A stretch of 63,524 nucleotides of DNA, counting the filler, from Olpidium bornovanus S191 (lineage: Eukaryota > Fungi > Olpidiomycota): the NCBI GenBank assembly GCA_017911155.1. It is 30 parts of 30 records of this genome, joined end to end, with 100 filler letters (N's around TTAATTAATTAA, not from the genome) between each part and the next. Parts side by side here need not be neighbours in the genome. Positions count along the whole stretch, not along the records: positions 48,577 to 50,089 come from JAEFCI010001260.1; 29 more parts are not named here. One strand, given 5' to 3'. Every line of letters starts with the position of its first letter. The stretch's first letter is position 1. The translations under genes and the position numbers were made by a program. The notes beneath the pieces are model-generated. The model was not told the origin of the DNA. It did not search any database and saw nothing but the letters and a program-made list of their open reading frames with translations. Shown here piece after piece: positions 39,689 through 59,269 of the stretch.

Positions 39689-39906
39689 GNNNNNNNNNNN
39701 NNNNNNNNNNNNNNNNNNNNNNNNNNNNNNNNNTTAATTAATTAANNNNNNNNNNNNNNNNNNNNNNNNNNNNNNNNNNNNNNNNNNNNAACTTCTCAGA
39801 GGACGGTACGCATTTAACGGTGCTCATTGCTCGCTCGACCGAACAGAACCTCCCAAAACCTTTGCACCAGACGGATTGATCGTGCTATAGCAGAAACCAG
39901 GCCGGC

Positions 39907-42900
39907 ATGTCGAGGCATGACGAGTCCAACCTGCCAAATGCCGTCCAGGACGACGACCAAGACCAGGCGCCAAGAGACGATGCCCAGCAGCCGCGAATCC
40001 ACTTCCAGGGCGGCGCGCCGTCCTCGCCGATACCGGTCCACCTGCCGCCTCTTAAAGGCGGTGCACGTCAGCATCCCTCGGGCCCCACAAATGATCCTGG
40101 CGCGACGTTGCCCAAGACGAGCCGGCCCCCCGGCGCGGCGGTGCCCGGGTCCGAATCCCATTCGCCGCCGCAGGCCGCGGGCGGAGCGGCGCGCGCCTCC
40201 GCGCCGGCGGCGACAAGCGACGGCGTAAACTCGCGTCGCGGCTCCGTTGCCGTCGGCCACGGGCGAGGCCAGCGAGGGTCCTTTTCGTCGGGCCAGGGCA
40301 GGGCCAAGTTCTCGTCGATTTCCGGGGAGAGCCAAAGGTCCGATCCGTCTGCGCCCCTGCGGCCGTTCTCTCCCAACAGGCGGGCGGGCATCGCTCGAGA
40401 AGTCCTCAATTCCATCAAGCACCACGGCTCGGCGTTCCGCAGGCAGCAGCGCCAGCCGGACGGCCAGGAAATTTCCGCCCAGCACACCGCCCCGTCGGTG
40501 GTGTTCGGAGTCACCGCGGACGATCTCTCTGCGCTGGTCAGTTTCGACCATCGCGACGGCGAGGCTCTCGAGAAACAGCTCGCGATGCTTGCGGCGGCAC
40601 CTTTCAACGGCATCTGCGGCCTTGCCGAGGCCCTCCGCACGGATCCCGTCTTCGGACTGCCGCTGGCCTCCGAGGTCCCCACCAGGTCGTTACAAGGGAT
40701 GAAAGAACTGAGCTTGTCTTCCGGCATCCTTAACGTCAGCCCGGTAGACGGCGGTGGAGCGACGACGACCGTAACCCAGCTGCTTGACGTGGCATACGCT
40801 GAGGAACGCAGGGCGGCTTTTGGCATAAACCTTATTCCGGCGCCGCCTTCGGAAACCATCCTTCAAATGGTGTGGGGCACCATTGTGGAGGATCCCATCC
40901 TTAAGATATTGATAGCCGGCGCCACCGTCACTCTCATCGTCGGTATAGCCACCAGCCCTGAGCATGGCTGGGTCGACGGCTTTGCCATTCTGGTAGCCGT
41001 TGTGATAGTTTTGACTGTCACCGCCGGAAATGACTACTCGAAGGAAAAAAAGTTTAAGAAGTTACTGTTGCTCAGCTCCGACAAGAAGACGAAGGTGACC
41101 CGTTCACTGACCCCACTTGCCATTACGGAAATCGCACTGGGAGCGCGAGCTTAACAACCTGCCCGCCCGTCCACATTTCCAGATCGTGAGAGGTGGAAGG
41201 CGCGACCAAATATCATCATGGGATCTTCTCGCCGGCGACTTGGTCGAGTTGGCCATCGGTGACGAGATTCCCGCAGACGGCATCTACGTCAGAGGCAACC
41301 GCCTCGTCGTGGACGAGTCCCCCCTAACGGGCGAATCGATACCCGTCAAGAAATCAGAGTCGGCGCCTTTCATGTTCTCGGGATGCCAGGTGTCGGAAGG
41401 GACGGCGGAGATGCTGGTGACGGGCGTCGGCCCCCGGTCTACCGGCGGCAAGATTCAGGAGCTCCTCAGCGAGACGCAGAAGGAGGAGACTCCGCTCCAG
41501 CTGAAGCTAAAGGACGTCGCGGTGCTCATCGGAAAAGTCGGCTTCCCCGCCGGCATCGCCACCTTCATCGCTTTGATCATCCGATGGGCCATAAACTTGG
41601 GCACGGGGCGCGTCGTCTGGGAAACGATGCGGCTGAAAGAGCTGATCGACTTCTTTGTGGTCGCCGTGACTGTGGTCGTCGTGGCCGTGCCGGAGGGTTT
41701 GCCCCTCGCGGTCACCATCTCGCTCGCATTTTCCATGTTCAAAATGGTCAGTGAGCGATGCTTCGTCCGGCATCTCGCCGCTTCAGAGACCATGGGGCAG
41801 GCAACCTGCATCTGCACAGGTAATCCGACCAAAACGGGAGTAACATTTCTTGTTTTTTTTTTTTATTTTCGCCGCCCAGCGGCGGGTCGGTGGAGTACGC
41901 CGTTCGACGTTCCGTGCCGGCTAACGCCAAGGCGTTACATTTTTCCTGCAGACAAGACGGGGACGCTTACCGAAAATCGAATGACGGTGGTCAAGGTCTT
42001 GGCCGGGGATTTTCATTTCGCCGGAGAAGGGGCGGGCACTCACATCGACTCGCAGTTCACGAGCGACACGTTCCCCGCGAGCGTGCGCGACCTGCTCTGC
42101 GAGAGCATCTGCCTGAACAGCTCGTGCTTCTTGAAATACGTCGCCGGGAAGACCGTCTTCGTCGGCAGCCCGACCGAGGGGGCGCTGCTGCTCTTCTCGG
42201 AAAAGCTCGGGGTAGAGTACCAGCGGGCGCGGGACTCGGTCAAAACCATCCCGTCGGCGTCGATCGCTTTCGACTCCGGGCGCAAGCGCATGTCGACGAC
42301 CGTCCGCCCCGTCGCCTGCGCCCCGGAGGGGCCGTCGGAGTACCGGCTGTACGTCAAGGGCGCATCGGAGATCGTTTTCGCGCTGTGCAAGCGCATCATC
42401 GTCGCCGCCGATCCCCTGCAAGTCCGGGCCCTCACCGAGGAAGACACGCAGCGGATACACCAGACGATCAAAGACTGGGCCGCCGAGGGCCTGCGGACGA
42501 TCGTCACGGCGTACAAGAACATGGACCAGTACAAAACGGACGAGGACATGGATTTCGACCTGACGTTTATCAGCTTGATGGGCGTCAAGGACCCCGTGCG
42601 CGCCGAAGTCCCCGATGCCGTCGCGAGGTGCCAGCGGGCGGGGATTGTCGTGCGGATGGTCACGGGCGACAACATCCTGACGGCTTCCAAGATCGCCCGG
42701 GAGTGCGGCATCCTCAACGAGTTCGGCGCGGCCCTGGAGGGACCGGTCTTCCGGGCCATGTCCCCCCGGGAGCGCGCAGACGTCATTCCCCGCCTGCAAG
42801 TTCTGGCGCGGAGTTCCCCTCACGACAAGCTCATCCTGGTGCACGCTCTGCGCAGTATGGGCGAAGTCGTCGCCGTGACCGGGGACGGAACCAACGACGC

Positions 42901-43751
42901 TCCGGCCTTGAAAGAGGCGGACGTTGGGTTTGCGATGGGCATATCGGGTACCCAGATTGCCATGAACGCATGCGACATCATCTTGCTAGACGACAACTTT
43001 GCCACAATCGTCTCCGCCCTCCGGTACGTTTTTCGGGCCTCGTTTGTATTTCAGAAAGGTGGGAACCTGCGCGTTGTCAGTTCCCAGGGCCAAAAAAAAA
43101 TTGTTTTGTTATTCGCGCTCCAGATGGGGCCGGAATGTTCTCAACTGCGTACGAAAGTTCCTGCAATTCCAACTGTCGGTCAACCTCGTCGCGATAAGCA
43201 TCACGTTCGTTGGTTCGGTGGCGATCGGCGAGTCGCCACTTTCGGCGGTAGAGCTGCTTTGGGTGAACCTTATCATGGACACACTCGGCGCGCTTGCCCT
43301 CGCCAGCGAAGAGCCGGACCCGGACATCCTGGTCAAGACCCCGCACAGCCGGTCCGAGAAACTGATCAACAAAAACATGTTCATATTCATCGCGGCGCAG
43401 ACCACGTACCAGATGGCGGCGCTGCTGACGCTGCTGGGGGCCGGCAACGACATTGTCCCGGTCACGGAAGGGAAATTCGCCGGCGAAGAGGATATGGACA
43501 GGCGGCTCCGGTCGCTAATTTTCAGCACCTTCGTGTTCCTCCAGGTGGTGAACGAGTTTTGCGCCCGCCACCTTTACCACCAGCTGAACCCCTTCGCGGG
43601 AATCACCCGCAGCCGGCTCTTCACCGCCATCATGGTGTTCATCCTTTTGATCCAGGTCCTGATGGTGCAGTTTGCGAGCGGCTTCGTGGGATCGATGGAG
43701 CTCGACTGGCAGGAGTGGCTGTGCTGCGCGTTCATAGCCGTTCTGGACCTC
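39907..43751 (+). CDS. PMC1: P2B-type (PMCA/Pmc1) Ca2+-transporting ATPase, 3' truncated
   Basis: DESPLTGES, VVAVPEGLPLAVT, CT|DKTGTLT phosphorylation site (split by intron), FDSGRKRM, KGASE, GVKDPVR, MVTGDN, ARSSPHDK, TGDGTNDAPALK, KFLQFQLSVN, LLWVNLIMDT. Confidence 0.95.
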
Positions 43752-43851: not shown

Positions 43852-44530
43852 GCACCTTAGAAGCCTTAGTGGCCCCCGTCAAGTCCGACCTCCTGTTAGG
43901 GCTACGCTGGCTGCGCCAGGAAAACCCAATAATAGATTGAACGGCAGGCACCGTCCAGCTAGGCGAAGACACGATCTTGTCTAAGCACCAGCTATGAAAG
44001 GCGCTGAAACAAAGAGAAGTGGTAGCCGTCGCAACTGTAGTTGAAGAGCCCGTCAAGGACTTAGAAGGCCCTCCAGACGTCGACTTACGGTTCGCCAAGA
44101 TCATAAGGGAATACCAGGACGTATTGCCGGCTACCCTACCTCCCGTTAACGCCCTCCGGACTCGTGCGAAGAAGATTGTCCACGAGATCGCCATAGAGGC
44201 TGGTGCCAAGCCGCATAGCCAGCCGATATACCACCTCTCAGAAGCTGAGCTTGCAGAGCTTAGGCGCCAGCTGAAGGAGCTCCTCGAAGCCGGCCACATT
44301 AGACCGTCCAAGTCTCCCTGGGAAGCCCCCATACTCTTCGTTAAGAAGAAGGGGTCAGACAAACTGCGGATGTGCATAGACTATTGCCGCCTAAACGCAG
44401 TCATTATCAAGGATGCCACCCCATTGGTCCTTCCCGAGGAGATGAGACATAGGTTCGCCGGCGCGAAGTACTTCTCGGCCCTCGACCATACCCAGGGATA
44501 TTACCAGATCCCTGTGGCCAAGAAGTGTTG
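43852..44530 (+). mobile_element. Ty3/gypsy pol fragment (protease end plus RT start), inactivated and truncated
   Basis: DLLLGLRWLRQENPIID* (premature TGA where Trp is expected), then IRPSKSPWEAPILFVKKKGSDKLRMCIDYCRLNAV...AKYFSALDHTQGYYQIPV. Homology stops abruptly at about 44525. Confidence 0.92.
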
Positions 44531-44654
44531 GTACTCAAGCTCTCACTGCCCTCAAAGTAGTAACCGCCCGAACCCAAAATAAACCAAACAGAACAAAACC
44601 AAACCACAGGTTATGAGCCCAACGGCGCCCTGCCCGTGAACCATCCTCCCGTTA

Positions 44655-48576: not shown

Positions 48577-48648
48577 CTCGCGCGACTTGTTTCGCCCCAA
48601 CTCGCGCGACTTGTTTCGCCCCAACTCGCGCGACTTGTTTTGCCCCGA
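48577..48648 (+). repeat. 24-bp tandem repeat array 1 (inside presumed intron)
   Basis: (CTCGCGCGACTTGTTTCGCCCCAA)x3, third copy variant, running off the contig start. Confidence 0.95.
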
Positions 48649-48683
48649 TTCCCGATGTTGACATCGCGTTTCCTTCCGCGAAG

Positions 48684-50089
48684 AGATAGTAACGAGGGCT
48701 CTTCAACAAGCGATCGATCGCGCGGATCCGTTGGCGATCGCGATGGAAGCACGAGAGCGTGCTGTCGTAACCGGCGACGTTTCTCGCCACCAGTGCACGG
48801 GGGTCGATATCGCGGTGTACTCTAGCAACCGCATGATGCGCGTCTGCGGTGCTTCAAAGGCCGTGTGGGCTCCGGGCCAAGGACCATTCATGCCCGCTCC
48901 CCCTCGCTTCCTTCGTCCATCCTTGATAACGGGTTGGTGGTCGAGCAAGGGACTGGTGGCGCATCGCTTCCTTGTGCCAGCCGAACTTGACGCGGGCGTC
49001 CCGAGTCTGGCAGCCAGGCAGGCGTGGTTCCGCGCCTCCGTTATGTGCGGACGAGCCCTGCAACCCTGCACGATCCCGCCTCTCCCCACGGACTCGCCCC
49101 TCCTAAAGTCAACGCTCCGCCTCTTGGACGAGGATCTCCAGAGCGACGGGCACCAGTCCCGGCAAGACGTGACGGCCGTCAGCCCATGGTGGCGCGACGA
49201 TCTTCGTTGCATCCAATACGCGCGAGCTTCGAAGTCGCCGTCTCCGGCGACTCTGCCGACGGGCCATCAGCGGCCCTTTTCAAAACGTCCGCGCCCCTCG
49301 CCGTTCGAGAAGAGCGGCTCCACCCGCTCGTGCTTCGTTTTTGACGAAGACGTTGAAGGATTGATCCCGCGATGCTACAGGGACGACGGATCAGGGTGGA
49401 TCGAGGTCTTTCCGGGAGGGCACCGGCGCGTCGCGGGAGCAGAAGCTGACCGGGTGGAAATCGAGTATTGCACACGTGCCGTCAGCGCGGACCCGCCGCA
49501 CATCCAGTATGTGCGAGCAATGATGGTCTTGCGCGAGCTTGATTTCCGGTACCGATTGCTGGTACGTCCTTGACTTCGGTTCCGCGAGGTGTTTCGCCCC
49601 AACTCGCCCACTCGCCCGAGGGCGAGGACGCGCGACTTGTTTCGCCCCAACTCGCGCGACTTGTTTCGCCCCACCTCGCGCGACTAACTCGCGCGACTTG
49701 TTTCGCCCCAACTCGCGGATTCATAGGCGCCCGACATCGACCCTGAGTCGCGCGCTGGACTCGAACAGTCCCACGCTACTCTCTTGCGCGAGCTGCGCTC
49801 ACTGCGGGACCGAGGATGGACCTCTGTCGCCGGAATGTCCGACGAAGCATGTCGGGCGATGTTCTCGGACTCGGTTGTCACGTACGTTATCCCCGAGTTT
49901 CCCGTTTACGACGCCCTCGCCGGGAGATACGTCCGGCTAGCGGACGTGAATCAAAAGACAATTGTATACTGCCCCCGCCACGAAACGACCGGGGAGCACA
50001 GCCCGTCGGCATTCGTCGCGCAACTGGAGTCCGGGCGACGATTCATATACTGCTCGGTCTGCTCGCCGGCGGCTGGGCGAGGGCGCATA
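48684..50089 (+). CDS. Archaeo-eukaryotic primase (PrimPol/viral-type) fragment with C-terminal CHC2-like zinc finger, partial at both ends
   Basis: VDIAVYSSNRMMRVCGASK (48803-48859) fits AEP motif III (human PrimPol VDLGVYTRNRNFRLYKSSK). A phase-0 intron at 49562-49726 joins it to CPRHETTGEHSPSAFVAQLESGRRFIYCSVC (49970-50062; CPxH..PSxxV..YCxxC). Confidence 0.65.
49589..49716 (+). repeat. 24-bp tandem repeat array 2 (inside intron 49562-49726)
   Basis: Same unit as array 1: three full copies, one partial copy and one 13-bp deletion variant (GCGCGACTAACTC). Confidence 0.95.
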
Positions 50090-52130: not shown

Positions 52131-52853
52131 GGAATCAAGAGCTACATCAAGTGGGAAGGTTACGAATCCAGCAAAGCAACCTGGAAACACGGCAAACGGA
52201 CTTTGGAAGAATTTGACACTTGATTTGAATTCAATGTATTTTTTCCCGACGACGTTCCTGATGTCCCTGACGCCGGTCTCAAGGTTCCGGACGTTTCTGA
52301 TGTCCCCGACGCCGGTCTCGACATACCCGACGTCCCCAACGGCGGTCTCGACGTTCTTGACGTTCCTGACGTCCCCGACGCCGGTCTCGACGGTCCCGAC
52401 GTCTCAGACACCGGTCTCGACGTTTCTGACGCCGGTCTCGACGTTTCCGACGTCTCTGACACCGGTCTCGACGTTCCTGACGCCGGTCTCAACGTTTGTG
52501 ACCTTCCTGACGTTCCCGACGGCGGTTTCGACGTTCCTGACGGCGGTCTCGACGTACCTGACATTCCCGAAATCCCCGATAGCGGTCTCAACGTTCCTGA
52601 CGCTCCTGACGTTCCTGACGTTTCTGACGTTCCTGAAACGTCCCCGACGGCGGTCTCGACGGTCCCAACGACGGTCCCCAACGGCGGTCTCGACATTCTC
52701 GACGTCTCCGACACCGGTGTCGACGTTCCTGACGCCGGTCTCGACGTTCGCGACCTTCCTGACGTTCTCGCCTGCGGTCTCGACATTCCCAATGTCTCCG
52801 ACGCCGGTCTCGACGCTCCGGACATTTCTGACATTAGCCGCGAAGCATGTTAA
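52131..52853 (+). pseudogene. Chromodomain-like fragment followed in frame by an acidic (Asp-Val-Pro / Asp-Ala-Gly-Leu) repeat
   Basis: GIKSYIKWEGYESSKATWKH..LEEFDT, one TGA at 52221, then FEFNVFFPDDVPDVPDAGLKVPDVSDVPDAGLDIPD... open to TAA at 52851. Not listed in the ORF track because it has no start codon. Confidence 0.55.
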
Positions 52854-53080
52854 TGTGAACGCTTAGCCGCGAAGCATGATAATGTGAACGCTTAGCCGCG
52901 GATTACGTTTTAATGTGACCCCCTGGCCCCGCCGGCCGCGAGGCGGATTACGTTTTAATGTGACTTAGCCGCGAAGCATGTTAATGTGAACGCTTAGCCG
53001 CGAAGCATGTTAACGTGAACGCTAAGCCGCGAAGCATGTTAATGTGAACGCTTAGCCGCGAAGCATGTTAATGTGAACGC
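52834..53080. repeat. 29-bp tandem array with nested interruption
   Basis: TTAGCCGCGAAGCATGTTAATGTGAACGC in six full copies and one partial. It is interrupted at about 52898-52964 by two copies of GCGGATTACGTTTTAATGTGAC around a GC-rich core. Confidence 0.95.
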
Positions 53081-53407
53081 TCCCCACCAGTAGGTGCGCC
53101 ACTGCCACCTGACTCGTACAGCGACAGTGACATACTCAACTTTGTCCACAGTTGCATCAAAACACGATTGGATTTCGAAGAAGCGCCCGTAACTTTTGCG
53201 ATGGCAATGATAACCATCTTCGGCCGTCGCGTGTCCGTTGTGACACCCTCAGCCAAGTCGACATGGTTCCCGGTTCCGAAGGAGTCCTTGATAAAGCCAT
53301 AGACCTCGGCGGGGACGCCGAGAGAGCAGTACGTTCCCATGTAGGTTCCATCCCAGGACCTGCCTCCACGGCTGTAGGTCTTCCTGACACCGACCGTAGA
53401 ACGGTCG

Positions 53408-55170: not shown

Positions 55171-55306
55171 ACCTCGGCATGTCGAAAAACTGCCCCAACT
55201 CGAAGCTACCTCGGCAGGTCGTAAAACTGCCCCAACTCGAAGCAACCTCGGCAGGTCGTAAAACTGCCCCAGCTCGAAGCGACCCTGGCAGGTCGAAAAA
55301 CTGCCT
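55171..55306. repeat. 37-bp tandem array
   Basis: ACCTCGGCAGGTCGTAAAACTGCCCCAACTCGAAGC(A/T/G) units start at 55171, 55208, 55245 and 55282; a degenerate copy lies at about 55120. Confidence 0.9.
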
Positions 55307-55999
55307 CGACCATCCAGGCGGCGACAGGGGGACAGACGTTTTCTGCGAGTCTGAACCCCCCCCCCCCCCGTTTTCTGCTAGTCTGAACCCCCCCGCGACG
55401 TCGAACCAACGAGACTGCGGCCGAGCCCAATGGCTCCTCCCTCCTGGGCTGTCTGGAGACGGCAAGTACTCCAGGCATCGACCACCCGGCGCTCCAGGGG
55501 TTGGAAGACGACGCGCCGCGACAAGACTTTCCGCAGGCGGAAAGTACGGGGGGTGTGCTGTAGCACGGCCCTCAAACCGCCCGTCGACCGACGCCACGGA
55601 AGGCGGGCGGCGGGCGAAGGGCGGCGGGCGAAGGGCGCAGGACAAAGGGCGAGAGGCGGTCGAAGGGCGGAGGCGGCGGCGGGATCGAGGGCAGGGCAGC
55701 CCCCGAACCCGGGGGCCGACCCATAGAATAACCCCCTTCGAAGCCCGCCAATCGAAGAGCTCTCTCTCCTTCCCCCAGCGCCACACGCGGAAGCTCCCCG
55801 CCAACCATCGTTCCCCCCCCTGGGTGAACGATACTGCCCGCCAACCATTGTTCNNNNNNNNNNNNNNNNNNNNNNNNNNNNNNNNNNNNNNNNNNNNTTA
55901 ATTAATTAANNNNNNNNNNNNNNNNNNNNNNNNNNNNNNNNNNNNNNNNNNNNCATGATTCGGCGGGCCTTTCCCCCACGAACAAAATAATACCTATGT

Positions 56000-56073
56000 T
56001 GCTCCTTGTGAGGATTGAACTCACGACCTCAGGATTATGAGACCTGCGCAACTACCAACTGTGCTAAAGAAGC
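56000..56073 (-). tRNA. tRNA-Met (CAT), elongator type, intronless
   Basis: GCTTCTTTAGCACAGTTGGTAGTTGCGCAGGTCTCATAATCCTGAGGTCGTGAGTTCAATCCTCACAAGGAGCA. Acceptor stem GCTTCTT/AAGGAGC, anticodon loop CTCATAA, T-loop TTCAATC, TTTT tract downstream. Confidence 0.95.
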
Positions 56074-57359: not shown

Positions 57360-59269
57360 TCAAGAAGCTTGATGACGAAGATTAGGCGACGGACAGGGAG
57401 ATCGTCCGTGCTCCGAATGCGTGTACGTGTGCCGGAGCGGCGTAATGTTTAGCAAGATGTCGGGCGGCTGCAGGGTCATCAGCGGGACCTGCTGGTGATG
57501 TTGAAACGGGGGGGGATGCAGCAAGAACGGCGGCGAGTCGCGACCCGCCGGCTGCCCCGCCGCTGCGCCGATGACGGGCGACGGGCACCGCGACGGGCAC
57601 CCCGACGGCGGGTTCGAGTCGAACCTCAGGGCCGACAGCGGCGGCAGCGTGACGCCCCCCGCGCTCGAGTCCCAGGGAAACTTGGGGTCGCGGTGCGGCC
57701 GGGACGGGGGCAGCGAGAACAGGTGGTGTGCCGGCGGCCGCCGCAGCGGCAGGGGCGCCAGGAGCTCCGGGAGCTGGAGCATGGACTTGCCGGGGTTCTG
57801 GGCCCCTTTCGGGAAGGGCCGCTGCCGCAGGGGGTCCGACGCGTGTTCGGGCGTCGCGGCGCTTTTGCCCGCGTCGACCGCCGCCGCCGCGGCCGCGTAC
57901 AGCCGCTCGCTCACCGAGGAGGCGCATTCGGTCTTGAACTTGGTGTCCCACGGCGGGTTTCGGTGCGACGACGACAGCGGGGAGGAGAGCCCCTCGTCCA
58001 CCTGCAGCATGTGGACGTCTGCACGCGCGCGGCTCTCGCCGTCTTCGCCGTCGCATTCGCGGTCGATGCCGAGTCGCTTCCTGAGAGAAACAATTTCCTT
58101 TTTCAAGTTCTGCGTGTGTCAAAGGCAGGAGCCCCGTCAGAGCCCGGTTTTGGGGGAGTGCAAGGGGGATAGTCTCAAAGCGGAAACCATCGAAGAGGAA
58201 GCTCACTGCCGCCCACGGGGTCTGACCCCGCACACCCACTTCGATGTATAAAATGGCGGTCTTTAACACGAGGCCCTTGTTCGGCTTCCTGCCACCCAGG
58301 TAGCGGGCCGGCAACGCGTGGGCAATGTCGTCGATCGTGTTGTTAATTGTATCGCGGCGCCTCCGTTCGACAACGTTGTGGTTCTCTCGACGCCTCCGCT
58401 GCCGGTCCAGCATGGCGTGCGCATCGAGCTGCTGGCGGGGATTCGGTCGGGCAAAGTCGGGCGAGGCAGGAGCGCTCACCGGCGACGGGTACTGAGGAGC
58501 GGCGGCGGGTTCGTAAGGCAGAGGCAGGGTTCCCTGAAAAAATCGGCAGTGGCGGTCGTCCGCGGCGTTTGCGGCAGCCGCCGCCTTTCGGCGTCGACGC
58601 GGCACGGATGAGCATCAAGCGGCGGCCGAAAACGAACGCAGGCCGGGGCCGACGCGCCGGGGGGGGGGCAAAAAAAAAAGCGACACAAACCTGGAAACCG
58701 GCGGCAGGCGTGTGGCTTTGGTAGTGGCGGACGCGCCACTCGTCCTCGGCTTCCCCGGGCACAGGAGACGGCGCGGACGACGAGGGGGTCGACGAGTCGT
58801 ACAGGCGGGCGCCGTGGTGATCGTCGCGGGAACAGTTCTGCTGCGCGGCGGCGGGGCAGGGCCCCGAGCAGCCCGCCGGGGGCGGAGAGGCGTGGACGGG
58901 ATTCTGGGGGCTGCAGGCGGCGGGCGCGTGGGCGCCGCAATCCTGGCCTTCCGTCCAAGCGGCGGGCAGCGACAGGGTGCGGACGACCGGCGGCTTTTCG
59001 GGCTGGGGCGCGACGGGGCTCCTCTCTGCGAAACTGCTGCACCGCGAGGAGACGTGCGGCCACCGGCAGCCGCGGTGGCGGTGGCGGTCGAGAACGTGCG
59101 GCGACGAAGGGCGCCCGAACGGCGGTGGCGTCCGGCGGCCGTCGCACTGGCCCGGAGCGGCCTCGGCGGCCGCGTAGGGCGGCGACGGCGGCGCCAACGG
59201 GTTCGGCCCGGGCGGGGGCCCCGCGCCGTGCTGCCGGGCCGCGTCGCCGTCGTGGTTGGCGCAGGCCAT
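57360..59269 (-). CDS. bHLH-leucine-zipper transcription factor (USF/MiT-TFE/Cbf1-like)
   Basis: RRRRENHNVVERRRRDTINNTIDDIAHALP..RKPNKGLVLKTAILYIE|NLKKEIVSLRKRLG: H-x3-E-x3-R E-box basic region with an intron before the zipper. Start (59269) and first intron are approximate. Confidence 0.85.

What the first reader, a model, noticed from the sequence alone, without database searches (positions are those of the whole stretch)
48577..49726. Two introns of one gene are made of the same 24-bp repeat, and a deletion in one unit creates the branch point
Intron 49562-49726 has a GTACGT donor and TAG acceptor and preserves frame (phase 0, 277 codons in from 48731). It is mostly GCGCGACT-TGTTTCGCCCC-AACTC units. 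One unit lacks the middle 11 nt, giving GCGCGACT-AACTC and hence GACTAAC, a consensus fungal branch point 39 nt from the 3' splice site. The same repeat fills the sequence upstream of the preceding exon (48577-48648), ahead of an in-frame TGA, a TTGAC and a pyrimidine-AAG acceptor. Inference: a repeat array, either iteron-like primase/origin binding sites or a small mobile unit, invaded the gene at least twice and was neutralised by becoming introns. This would be a visible route to intron gain and would let cis-acting replication repeats sit inside the replicase gene. Each unit has the palindrome TCGCGCGA.
Basis: partly seen in the sequence, partly recalled or inferred. Interest (0 to 1): 0.85.

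Follow-up and report, generated by a model that had tools for sequence, protein, structure and literature searches.

The report
Repeat-filled introns in viral-type primase gene
A fragment of a virus-type DNA-replication gene in a fungus-like genome carries the same 24-base repeat in two stretches that are likely introns, and an 11-base deletion in one repeat copy spells out a textbook splicing signal, which would be a rare snapshot of a repeat and an intron shaping each other; splicing itself has not been seen.

Summary
The sequence is as described, but it lies on a 1,513-nt contig that begins inside the first array, so only the 3' end of the upstream 'intron' is visible. Both flanking ORFs match, in order, one family of unbroken ~1,420-1,450-aa primase (AEP)-zinc finger-UL9-like helicase proteins. 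Removing 49562-49726 brings the spacing close to that of 5 of 5 homologues (292 vs 263-269 aa; 347 unspliced). The donor equals an RNA-verified donor of this genome. Only 4 of 552 possible deletions in the array give an RCTRAC branch site, and the observed one does. No RNA contig spans either predicted junction in spliced form; one spans the upstream acceptor unspliced. Donor and acceptor lie outside the repeat, and the insert already needed splicing before the deletion. So the repeat most likely spread between and expanded within introns, with the deletion improving the branch point. Repeat-first intron birth and iteron function remain open and untested. The scan has not reported this sequence on other DNA; only loosely similar repeat-intron themes in other fungi.

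The parts
48577..48649 (+). Upstream array: three 24-bp units (third with 3 mismatches), cut by the contig start
   Evidence: junction to the exon also in an independent run, X3 record 8, 48617-48738
48650..48689 (+). Likely 3' end of the upstream intron: in-frame TGA 48659-61, TTGAC branch-like site (A 48661), pyrimidine tract, acceptor AAG 48683 or TAG 48689
   Evidence: sequence; homologues have about 250 aa with AEP motifs I and II upstream of this point
48690..49561 (+). Exon: AEP motif III region (GVDIAVYSSNRMMR) and linker of a primase-helicase
   Evidence: 3 hits; E 3e-13 to P0005 259-336; E 1.9e-14; AEP_C962R-like, 0.93; covered by contigs of RNA run X1 at 48683-49080 and 49099-49479
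49562..49726 (+). Predicted 165-nt phase-0 GT-AG intron, about 69% repeat-derived, three in-frame stops
   Evidence: not seen spliced
49562..49579 (+). Non-repeat 18-nt leader with donor GTACGT and in-frame TGA 49571
   Evidence: same donor hexamer as the RNA-verified host intron 43024-43123
49580..49717 (+). Intronic array: degenerate unit, 24-nt non-unit segment, two units, truncated unit, unit, 5-nt partial unit
49676..49688 (+). Unit lacking 11 nt, creating GACTAAC (predicted branch A 49687); first AG downstream is the TAG at 49725-26
   Evidence: 4 of 552 deletions give RCTRAC; 96 of 2000 shuffles
49727..50089 (+). Exon: zinc-finger region (CPRH...C-x2-C), cut by the contig end before the expected helicase
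   Evidence: E 1e-11 to P0005 556-602; 4e-11 to P0004 290-362; E 1.3e-18

Best explanation
This is a fragment of a virus-type primase-zinc finger gene (predicted to continue into a UL9-like helicase) that has likely gained at least two spliceosomal introns in a eukaryotic nucleus, and a 24-bp minisatellite was likely copied from one intron to the other and expanded there because splicing would hide it from the protein. Shown: the repeat in both places, the splice-type signals, homology of both exons in order to one unbroken protein family, and the deletion that spells GACTAAC. Inferred: splicing at 49561/49727; gain of the introns; copying by local template switching, gene conversion or intron duplication, then slippage; and retention of the 11-nt deletion because it gave the repeat-filled intron a consensus branch point in place of the weak CCCAAC of the intact unit. 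The deletion most likely improved an intron that was already spliced and did not create it.
For: Both ORFs hit the same protein P0005 in order and are the only 2 window ORFs above the inclusion threshold of the family profile. Anchor spacing T.WW to CP.H is 263-269 aa in 5 of 5 homologues, 292 spliced, 347 unspliced. 4 of 4 full-length homologues carry AEP motifs I-III, the zinc finger and Walker A. Pfam Herpes_ori_bp passes its cut-off in 3 of 5 and the profile finds herpesvirus origin-binding protein structures at E 0.004-0.006. A modest model of the homologue's N-terminus (pLDDT 52) matches Ostreid herpesvirus 1 primase (E 9e-5) and human PrimPol (Z 8.3, rmsd 5.3, 150 aligned). RNA runs X1, X3, X5 of the same organism splice 3 GT-AG introns of a neighbouring-contig ATPase gene, one with the same GTACGT donor. 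GTRHGT occurs about once per kb (126 in 121,944) and one of 2 in the ORF sits in phase 0, 9 nt before its first stop. The branch site is followed by no AG before the acceptor. Both exons keep a coding pattern (GC by codon position 0.66/0.54/0.70 and 0.65/0.53/0.72); 2 of 3 listed X1 differences are synonymous. Splice sites lie outside the unit. Without the repeats about 50 nt of unique sequence remains.
Against: No spliced joint in 4 of 4 runs laid; one contig of RNA run X3 crosses the predicted upstream acceptor unspliced (48617-48738, depth 2.8). Local profile scores do not pick this junction: it ranks 38 of 70 candidates and the unspliced read-through ranks 40. The spliced product is still 23-29 aa longer than the homologues between anchors, and the alignment across the junction is of low identity. 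Homologues are only about 30-40% identical and come from gene calls that favour unbroken ORFs, so 'gain' is not polarised by close relatives. The upstream intron has no visible donor. The predicted fold pairs the donor's +4 to +11 bases. No genome is held, so copy number and other places of the repeat are unknown.
Confidence: 0.55

Rival explanations
1. Repeat-first intron birth: the 24-mer grew in or was inserted into the coding sequence, and cryptic GT and AG sites in neighbouring sequence plus the deletion-made branch point turned the arrays into introns.
For: 2 of 2 inferred introns seen hold the repeat, and homologues are unbroken. The unit is 3n and stop-free in 6 of 6 frames, and both arrays read SRDLFRPN in the gene's frame. 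Exon 1 has a gapped likeness to about 1.4 units at 49192-49228 (P 0.011, 0.014, 0.022 and 0 of 1000 under four nulls; 1 of 154 other stretches); GCGCGA[CG] occurs 4 times in the exons against 1.1 expected (P 0.016); a 13-nt exact repeat flanks the intron (P 0.016-0.024). Intron formation from internal tandem repeats is described in human paralogues (PMC2812944, passages).
Against: The tests were post hoc, use cheap gaps and are correlated; 3 of 4 short-motif counts were not significant. 3n length, no stops and shared frame are each common by chance. Before the deletion the insert would be 176 nt with a stop in the non-repeat leader. The unit has no AGGT or AG. No terminal inverted repeat or target duplication.
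Confidence: 0.2
2. The gene is dead or unspliced here: repeats broke an integrated viral-type gene and the splice-like signals are relics or chance.
For: No spliced joint seen; an unspliced contig crosses the upstream acceptor in RNA run X3. X1 pieces differ from the window at 4 of 860 nt against 2 of 3,576 nt for the ATPase gene, so the transcripts may come from another copy.
Against: 300 and 121 codons stay open right up to the donor region and from the acceptor; the deletion outcome has a 0.7-2% chance; codon-position GC pattern persists.
Confidence: 0.12
3. The arrays are cis-acting replication sites (iteron or origin boxes) for the encoded primase-helicase, kept inside its own gene and hidden by splicing.
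For: The family carries a UL9-like origin-binding helicase domain; units are near-identical in two arrays 1 kb apart; the unit holds a palindrome; variants of the 24-mer occur in two other runs (X3, X4).
Against: No binding test. The UL9 match covers only the helicase part, while origin recognition in HSV-1 UL9 lies in its C-terminal SAP subdomain (PMC13483431, passages). The likeness of TTCGCCCCAA to the flank of the oriS boxes printed there is at chance level (hand estimate about 0.2 expected matches, no call). One unit lost its middle 11 nt. No DNA around any homologue could be fetched, so conservation of arrays was not testable.
Confidence: 0.08
4. The 24-mer is a genome-wide satellite or telomere-type repeat, or the arrays are assembly artefacts, with no special link to this gene or its introns.
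For: The contig starts inside the array with the C-rich strand (CCCCAA) first; a variant unit forms a deeper contig (19 vs 3) in RNA run X3; array length in a short-read assembly is uncertain.
Against: The unit is absent from the other 29 contigs (about 59 kb) of the window; an independent contig links array and exon; an intron-type 3' end lies between array and exon; no exact match in viral, metagenome or prokaryote collections.
Confidence: 0.05

Closest known systems
Same-gene intron duplications (SGD) and repeats inserted in regular introns in fungi (Collemare et al. 2013, PMC3609843, section 4 read)
   Same: Two introns of one gene share sequence; the paper reports 82 such introns in 24 fungi, and near-identical introns that are repeats inserted inside ordinary introns.
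   Different: Here only an internal tandem unit is shared, the visible 3' ends differ, exons are not duplicated, and the repeat supplies the predicted branch point through a deletion.
Introners and introner-like elements, including those in integrated viral elements (PMC3609843; PMC12166617, abstract; PMC12768974, passages)
   Same: Sequence-similar introns at new positions in a viral-type gene; the intron folds more stably than shuffles (z -3.4).
   Different: No shared ends, terminal inverted repeats or target duplication; only two copies seen; similarity is a tandem minisatellite. Under the loose definition used for mirusviruses (two similar introns in one genome) the pair might count as a candidate introner.
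Intron gain from tandem repeats: AGGT tandem duplication and internal-tandem-repeat introns (PMC3443670 and PMC2812944, passages)
   Same: A minisatellite fills a young intron.
   Different: The unit carries neither donor nor acceptor; two separate arrays share the unit.
AEP-SF2 (UL9-like) primase-helicases: mimivirus R8, ASFV F1055L, Ostreid herpesvirus 1, mriyavirus SF2_hel (10.1101/2024.02.29.582850, passages)
   Same: The homologues have AEP motifs, then a UL9-like SF2 helicase; fold hits include the Ostreid herpesvirus primase and F1055L.
   Different: A separate, sparse family (singleton clusters) with a zinc-finger-like module between the domains; no relative found in IMG/VR by pattern search; in the window only motif III and the zinc finger are present.
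Spliceosomal introns in endogenous giant-virus genes (punuivirus, 10.64898/2026.10.09.758095, passages)
   Same: Host-type GT-AG introns of about this length (mean 176 bp there) in a viral-type gene in a eukaryotic genome.
   Different: No repeat-built introns were mentioned in the passages seen; here the element and its extent are unknown.

Membership tests
U2 spliceosomal intron (49562-49726) | Donor like those the host uses | tested here: met
   GTACGT is the donor of 1 of 3 RNA-verified host introns
U2 spliceosomal intron (49562-49726) | Branch consensus followed by the first AG as acceptor | tested here: met
   GACTAAC, 39 nt, no AG between; host distances are 27 and 28 nt, and 1 of 3 host introns has no YTRAY
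U2 spliceosomal intron (49562-49726) | Removal restores one ORF collinear with homologues | tested here: met
   exact junction not singled out by profile score
U2 spliceosomal intron (49562-49726) | Removed from RNA | tested here: inconclusive
   0 joints in 4 runs; no contig covers the junction
U2 spliceosomal intron (upstream array) | Donor and upstream exon | not testable with these tools
   contig begins in the array; no genome held
Introner / introner-like element | Near-identity along the whole intron including its ends | tested here: not met
   3' ends share only GATTC; the upstream 5' end is missing
Introner / introner-like element | Many copies in unrelated genes | not testable with these tools
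   no genome held; 0 copies in the other 29 contigs of the window
Introner / introner-like element | Terminal inverted repeats or target-site duplication at splice sites (DNA-transposon type; feature recalled) | tested here: not met
   none at the intron ends (sequence)
Introner / introner-like element | Stable predicted RNA structure | tested here: inconclusive
   z -3.4, but palindromic tandem units fold well by themselves
Tandem genomic duplication (AGGT) intron | Duplicated unit contains AGGT that gives both splice sites | tested here: not met
   unit has no AG on the sense strand; splice sites are outside it
Same-gene intron duplication | Similar introns within one gene | tested here: inconclusive
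   shared internal repeat only; upstream intron half seen
AEP-SF2 (UL9-like) primase-helicase | AEP catalytic motifs and fold | tested here: met
   in homologues: motifs I-III in 4 of 4 full-length proteins, fold hits; the window holds the motif III region only
AEP-SF2 (UL9-like) primase-helicase | C-terminal UL9-like SF2 helicase in this gene copy | not testable with these tools
   contig ends after the zinc finger; present in homologues
Iteron / origin box array | Specific binding by the cognate initiator and need for replication | not testable with these tools
   needs binding and replication assays

The most novel reading that the evidence does not exclude
A self-replicating nuclear element of a fungus-like host keeps the binding or priming repeats of its own primase-helicase inside that gene by converting them into spliceosomal introns; the repeat itself supplies the branch point through an 11-nt deletion and seeds new introns wherever it lands.
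Probability: 0.1. Interest if true: 0.82.

Novelty: new variant of a known kind. Interest (0 to 1): 0.42.

Why it matters
Most new introns have no traceable source. If splicing is confirmed, this is a case where the history of one core splice signal can be read from the sequence: intact units flank the one unit whose deletion makes the branch point, so the effect can be tested by restoring the unit in a minigene. It also points to a little-known family of primase-helicase elements that likely lives in eukaryotic nuclei and acquires host-type introns. As it stands it is a 1.5-kb fragment without junction reads, and repeats inside introns are common.

Tried and rejected
No whole genome is held, so no genome-wide count. 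RNA: the run search listed no holder on record as RNA; X1, X3, X5 were shown to be spliced RNA of this organism only by laying them on the ATPase gene. No contig covers 49480-49809, so the junction is neither shown nor excluded. X1's first contig stops at 48683, the G of the AAG acceptor, with no loose end; one run at depth 4, so I give it no weight. Depth ratios were not used as copy numbers. Exact 24-mer: 0 hits in viral, metagenome and prokaryote collections. A spaced 9-mer pattern gave 13 viral loci, none within 6 mismatches of the unit and none with the gene. Word-index protein searches with exon 1 found nothing. Locus searches found no relatives, so no gene neighbourhood is known. Phage collection: 2 weak helicase hits only. 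Pfam gave no real hit for either exon; Atlas hits for exon 2 were under 0.9. Rfam: 0 matches. The model of exon 1 was too poor to search (pLDDT 41). Foldseek against PDB had no match at E 0.001 or better. Profile score could not choose among splice sites. The alternative donor GTATGT 49507 keeps frame only with GAG acceptors that skip the first AG after the branch site; rejected. The 15-bp stem pairing 49565-49579 with 49615-49629 is near chance by hand estimate; not taken as a terminal inverted repeat. Resemblance to HSV-1 oriS box flanks: chance level by hand estimate. Telomere reading: no support beyond orientation. Paper searches for a branch point made by deletion in a minisatellite unit found no such case in the listings (one search gave 0 papers); the library lacks most subscription papers, and no supplements were read.

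Full report
Setting. The window is 30 short contigs joined by 100-nt spacers, so neighbours carry no linkage. The finding fills one contig, 48577-50089 (1,513 nt), which begins inside the upstream array and ends inside an ORF. No genome is held. The host is a eukaryote with GT-AG introns: RNA runs X1, X3 and X5 each give one contig that skips three introns of a P-type ATPase gene on another contig (Pfam). Those introns are 88, 132 and 100 nt, begin GTGACC, GTAATC and GTACGT, and 2 of 3 have a branch motif 27-28 nt from the acceptor.

Observation. The 24-mer TCGCGCGACTTGTTTCGCCCCAAC occurs 7 times at up to 6 mismatches, all in this contig, plus one 13-nt unit. The candidate intron reads: 18-nt unique leader with GTACGT, a unit with 4 mismatches, a 24-nt non-unit segment, two units, the truncated unit, a unit, and TCGCGGATTCATAG. 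It is 165 nt, phase 0, with stops at 49571, 49685 and 49724, and the next ORF opens right after the TAG. The truncated unit gives GACTAAC with the branch A 39 nt from the end and no AG between. Of 552 single deletions possible in such an array, 4 create RCTRAC and 12 create YTRAY; the observed one is among the 4. Of 2000 dinucleotide shuffles of the intron, 96 have a CTRAC so placed. The palindrome is in 6 of 8 units. Upstream, three units are followed by TGA, TTGAC, a pyrimidine tract and two in-phase acceptors, AAG 48683 and TAG 48689.

The gene. Pfam does not recognise either exon and two word-index searches were blank. A full HMMER scan found 3 relatives, and one of them, P0005, led to 3 more. 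P0005-P0008 are unbroken 1,419-1,453-aa proteins from environmental contigs, each a singleton cluster. All 4 carry AEP motifs I-III, a CP.H zinc-finger-like module and Walker A. Pfam Herpes_ori_bp passes its cut-off in P0004, P0006 and P0007, not in P0005 or P0008. The profile finds herpesvirus origin-binding protein structures at E 0.004-0.006. A model of the P0005 N-terminus (pLDDT 52) matches Ostreid herpesvirus 1 primase at E 9e-5 and human PrimPol at Z 8.3, rmsd 5.3, 150 aligned; Foldseek on PDB reached only E 1.3e-3. This is the AEP plus UL9-like SF2 helicase layout of mimivirus R8, ASFV F1055L and mriyavirus SF2_hel (10.1101/2024.02.29.582850, passages). Exon 1 matches P0005 259-336 (E 3e-13) and exon 2 matches 556-602 (E 1e-11). 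About 250 aa with motifs I and II must lie upstream of this contig, or have been lost, and the helicase downstream.

Is the insert an intron? Between anchors T.WW and CP.H the 5 homologues span 263-269 aa, the spliced product 292 and the read-through 347. So the 165 nt are extra, though 23-29 aa remain unexplained and the alignment at the junction is weak. Profile scores do not choose the junction: rank 38 of 70, read-through rank 40. The junction rests on the splice signals. Donor-like hexamers occur about once per kb; one of 2 in the ORF lies in phase 0, 9 nt before its first stop, and equals an RNA-verified host donor. I put the chance that this is a real intron at about 0.8.

RNA and independent DNA (4 of 5 listed runs laid). 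X1 contigs cover 48683-49080, 49099-49479 and 50009-50089 at depth 4-7, with 4 differences in 860 nt against 2 in 3,576 nt on the ATPase gene. The transcripts may come from another copy; 2 of the 3 listed differences are synonymous. No joint was seen in any run. X3 has a 124-nt contig across 48617-48738, unspliced. This confirms that array and exon are physically joined and counts mildly against efficient splicing upstream (pre-mRNA or DNA carry-over would also give it). X3 and X4 hold 54-nt contigs of the repeat, which I read as one 24-nt cycle in a 31-mer assembly; two are variant units (3 and 5 differences), so the repeat family is wider than this contig. X2, coded as another organism and without a close ATPase piece, holds two exon pieces (2 differences in 111 nt, 1 in 206 nt), a weak hint of a multi-copy or shared element.

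Which came first? Donor and acceptor are outside the unit, which has no AG. Adding the 11 nt back gives 176 nt, out of frame, with a stop in the unique leader, so the insert needed splicing before the deletion unless the copy was broken for a time. The host splices an intron with no consensus branch motif, and the intact unit has CCCAAC, one change from CTAAC. The simplest reading is an existing intron, a repeat copied in and expanded, and a deletion kept because it improved the branch point. The two 3' ends share only GATTC and there is no terminal repeat or target duplication, so this is not a classic introner. For the opposite order: both inferred introns hold the repeat; the unit is 3n and stop-free in 6 of 6 frames; both arrays are in the gene's frame; exon 1 has a gapped likeness to about 1.4 units (P about 0.01-0.02 under three nulls, 0 of 1000 under a synonymous shuffle), and a 13-nt repeat flanks the intron (P about 0.02). 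These tests were post hoc and correlated. They keep an exonic origin of the unit alive but do not show it.

Iteron idea. It fits a UL9-like protein, but the match covers the helicase part only, while HSV-1 UL9 recognises origins through a C-terminal subdomain (PMC13483431, passages). No DNA around any homologue could be fetched. The unit has no exact match in three collections.

What is known. Similar introns within one fungal gene, and repeats inserted in ordinary introns, are described (PMC3609843, passages and section 4). Intron formation from tandem repeats is described (PMC2812944, outline and passages; PMC3443670, passages). Host-type introns in viral genes are described (10.64898/2026.10.09.758095, passages; PMC12768974, passages; PMC12166617, abstract). 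Giant-virus integrations in zoosporic fungi are described, with low intron density (PMC13533422, passages). I saw no report of a branch point made by a deletion in a minisatellite unit in the listings; the library is partial. Earlier scan notes hold no look-alike of this protein and one unrelated DNA hit; one search listed 8 of 15 notes on other repeat-intron arrangements in fungi.

Verdict. A real and tidy feature: a likely intron filled with a repeat that is shared with a second, half-seen likely intron, in a viral-type primase gene, with a branch point of visible origin. Splicing, intron birth from the repeat and any replication role are unproven. New variant of a known kind; interest 0.42.

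Noticed in passing
P0005-P0008: A sparse, mostly unnamed family of 1,419-1,453-aa AEP-zinc finger-UL9-like helicase proteins; P0005 lies on a 32-kb contig; P0007 has an extra cysteine-rich insertion inside the helicase.
   Followed up: partly
window 55171-55305: A 37-bp tandem repeat on another contig shares the 11-mer GCCCCAACTCG with the 24-mer; an 11-mer match somewhere in the window is expected by chance.
   Followed up: partly
window 39790-43751: P-type (calcium-pump-like) ATPase gene with three RNA-verified introns (41095-41182, 41820-41951, 43024-43123); RNA contigs diverge from the window upstream of 39856, suggesting a further 5' exon or a contig-end error.
   Followed up: partly
window 49052: Run X2 has a contig that matches exon 1 from 49052 on but carries 49 unrelated letters before it: a possible truncated or rearranged copy.
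   Followed up: no
window 49527-49539 and 49782-49794: Exact 13-nt direct repeat TCTTGCGCGAGCT in the exons on both sides of the intron, same frame (LREL), resembling the start of the unit.
   Followed up: partly
window 43998-44540: ORF that looks by eye like a Ty3/gypsy reverse-transcriptase fragment (label recalled); Pfam gave no hit on 43998-44489.
   Followed up: no
window 52250-53081: Complex 9/21/30-bp repeat region followed by a 29-bp tandem array.
   Followed up: no
window 55995-56072 (- strand): tRNA-like sequence seen by eye; not run through a tRNA finder.
   Followed up: no
window 58290-58440 (- strand): Stretch that reads by eye like a basic helix-loop-helix motif (label recalled).
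   Followed up: no
whole window: All 29 spacers are 100 nt of N around TTAATTAATTAA, and many contigs begin or end with CATG; apparent gene neighbourhoods in this window are artificial.
   Followed up: yes
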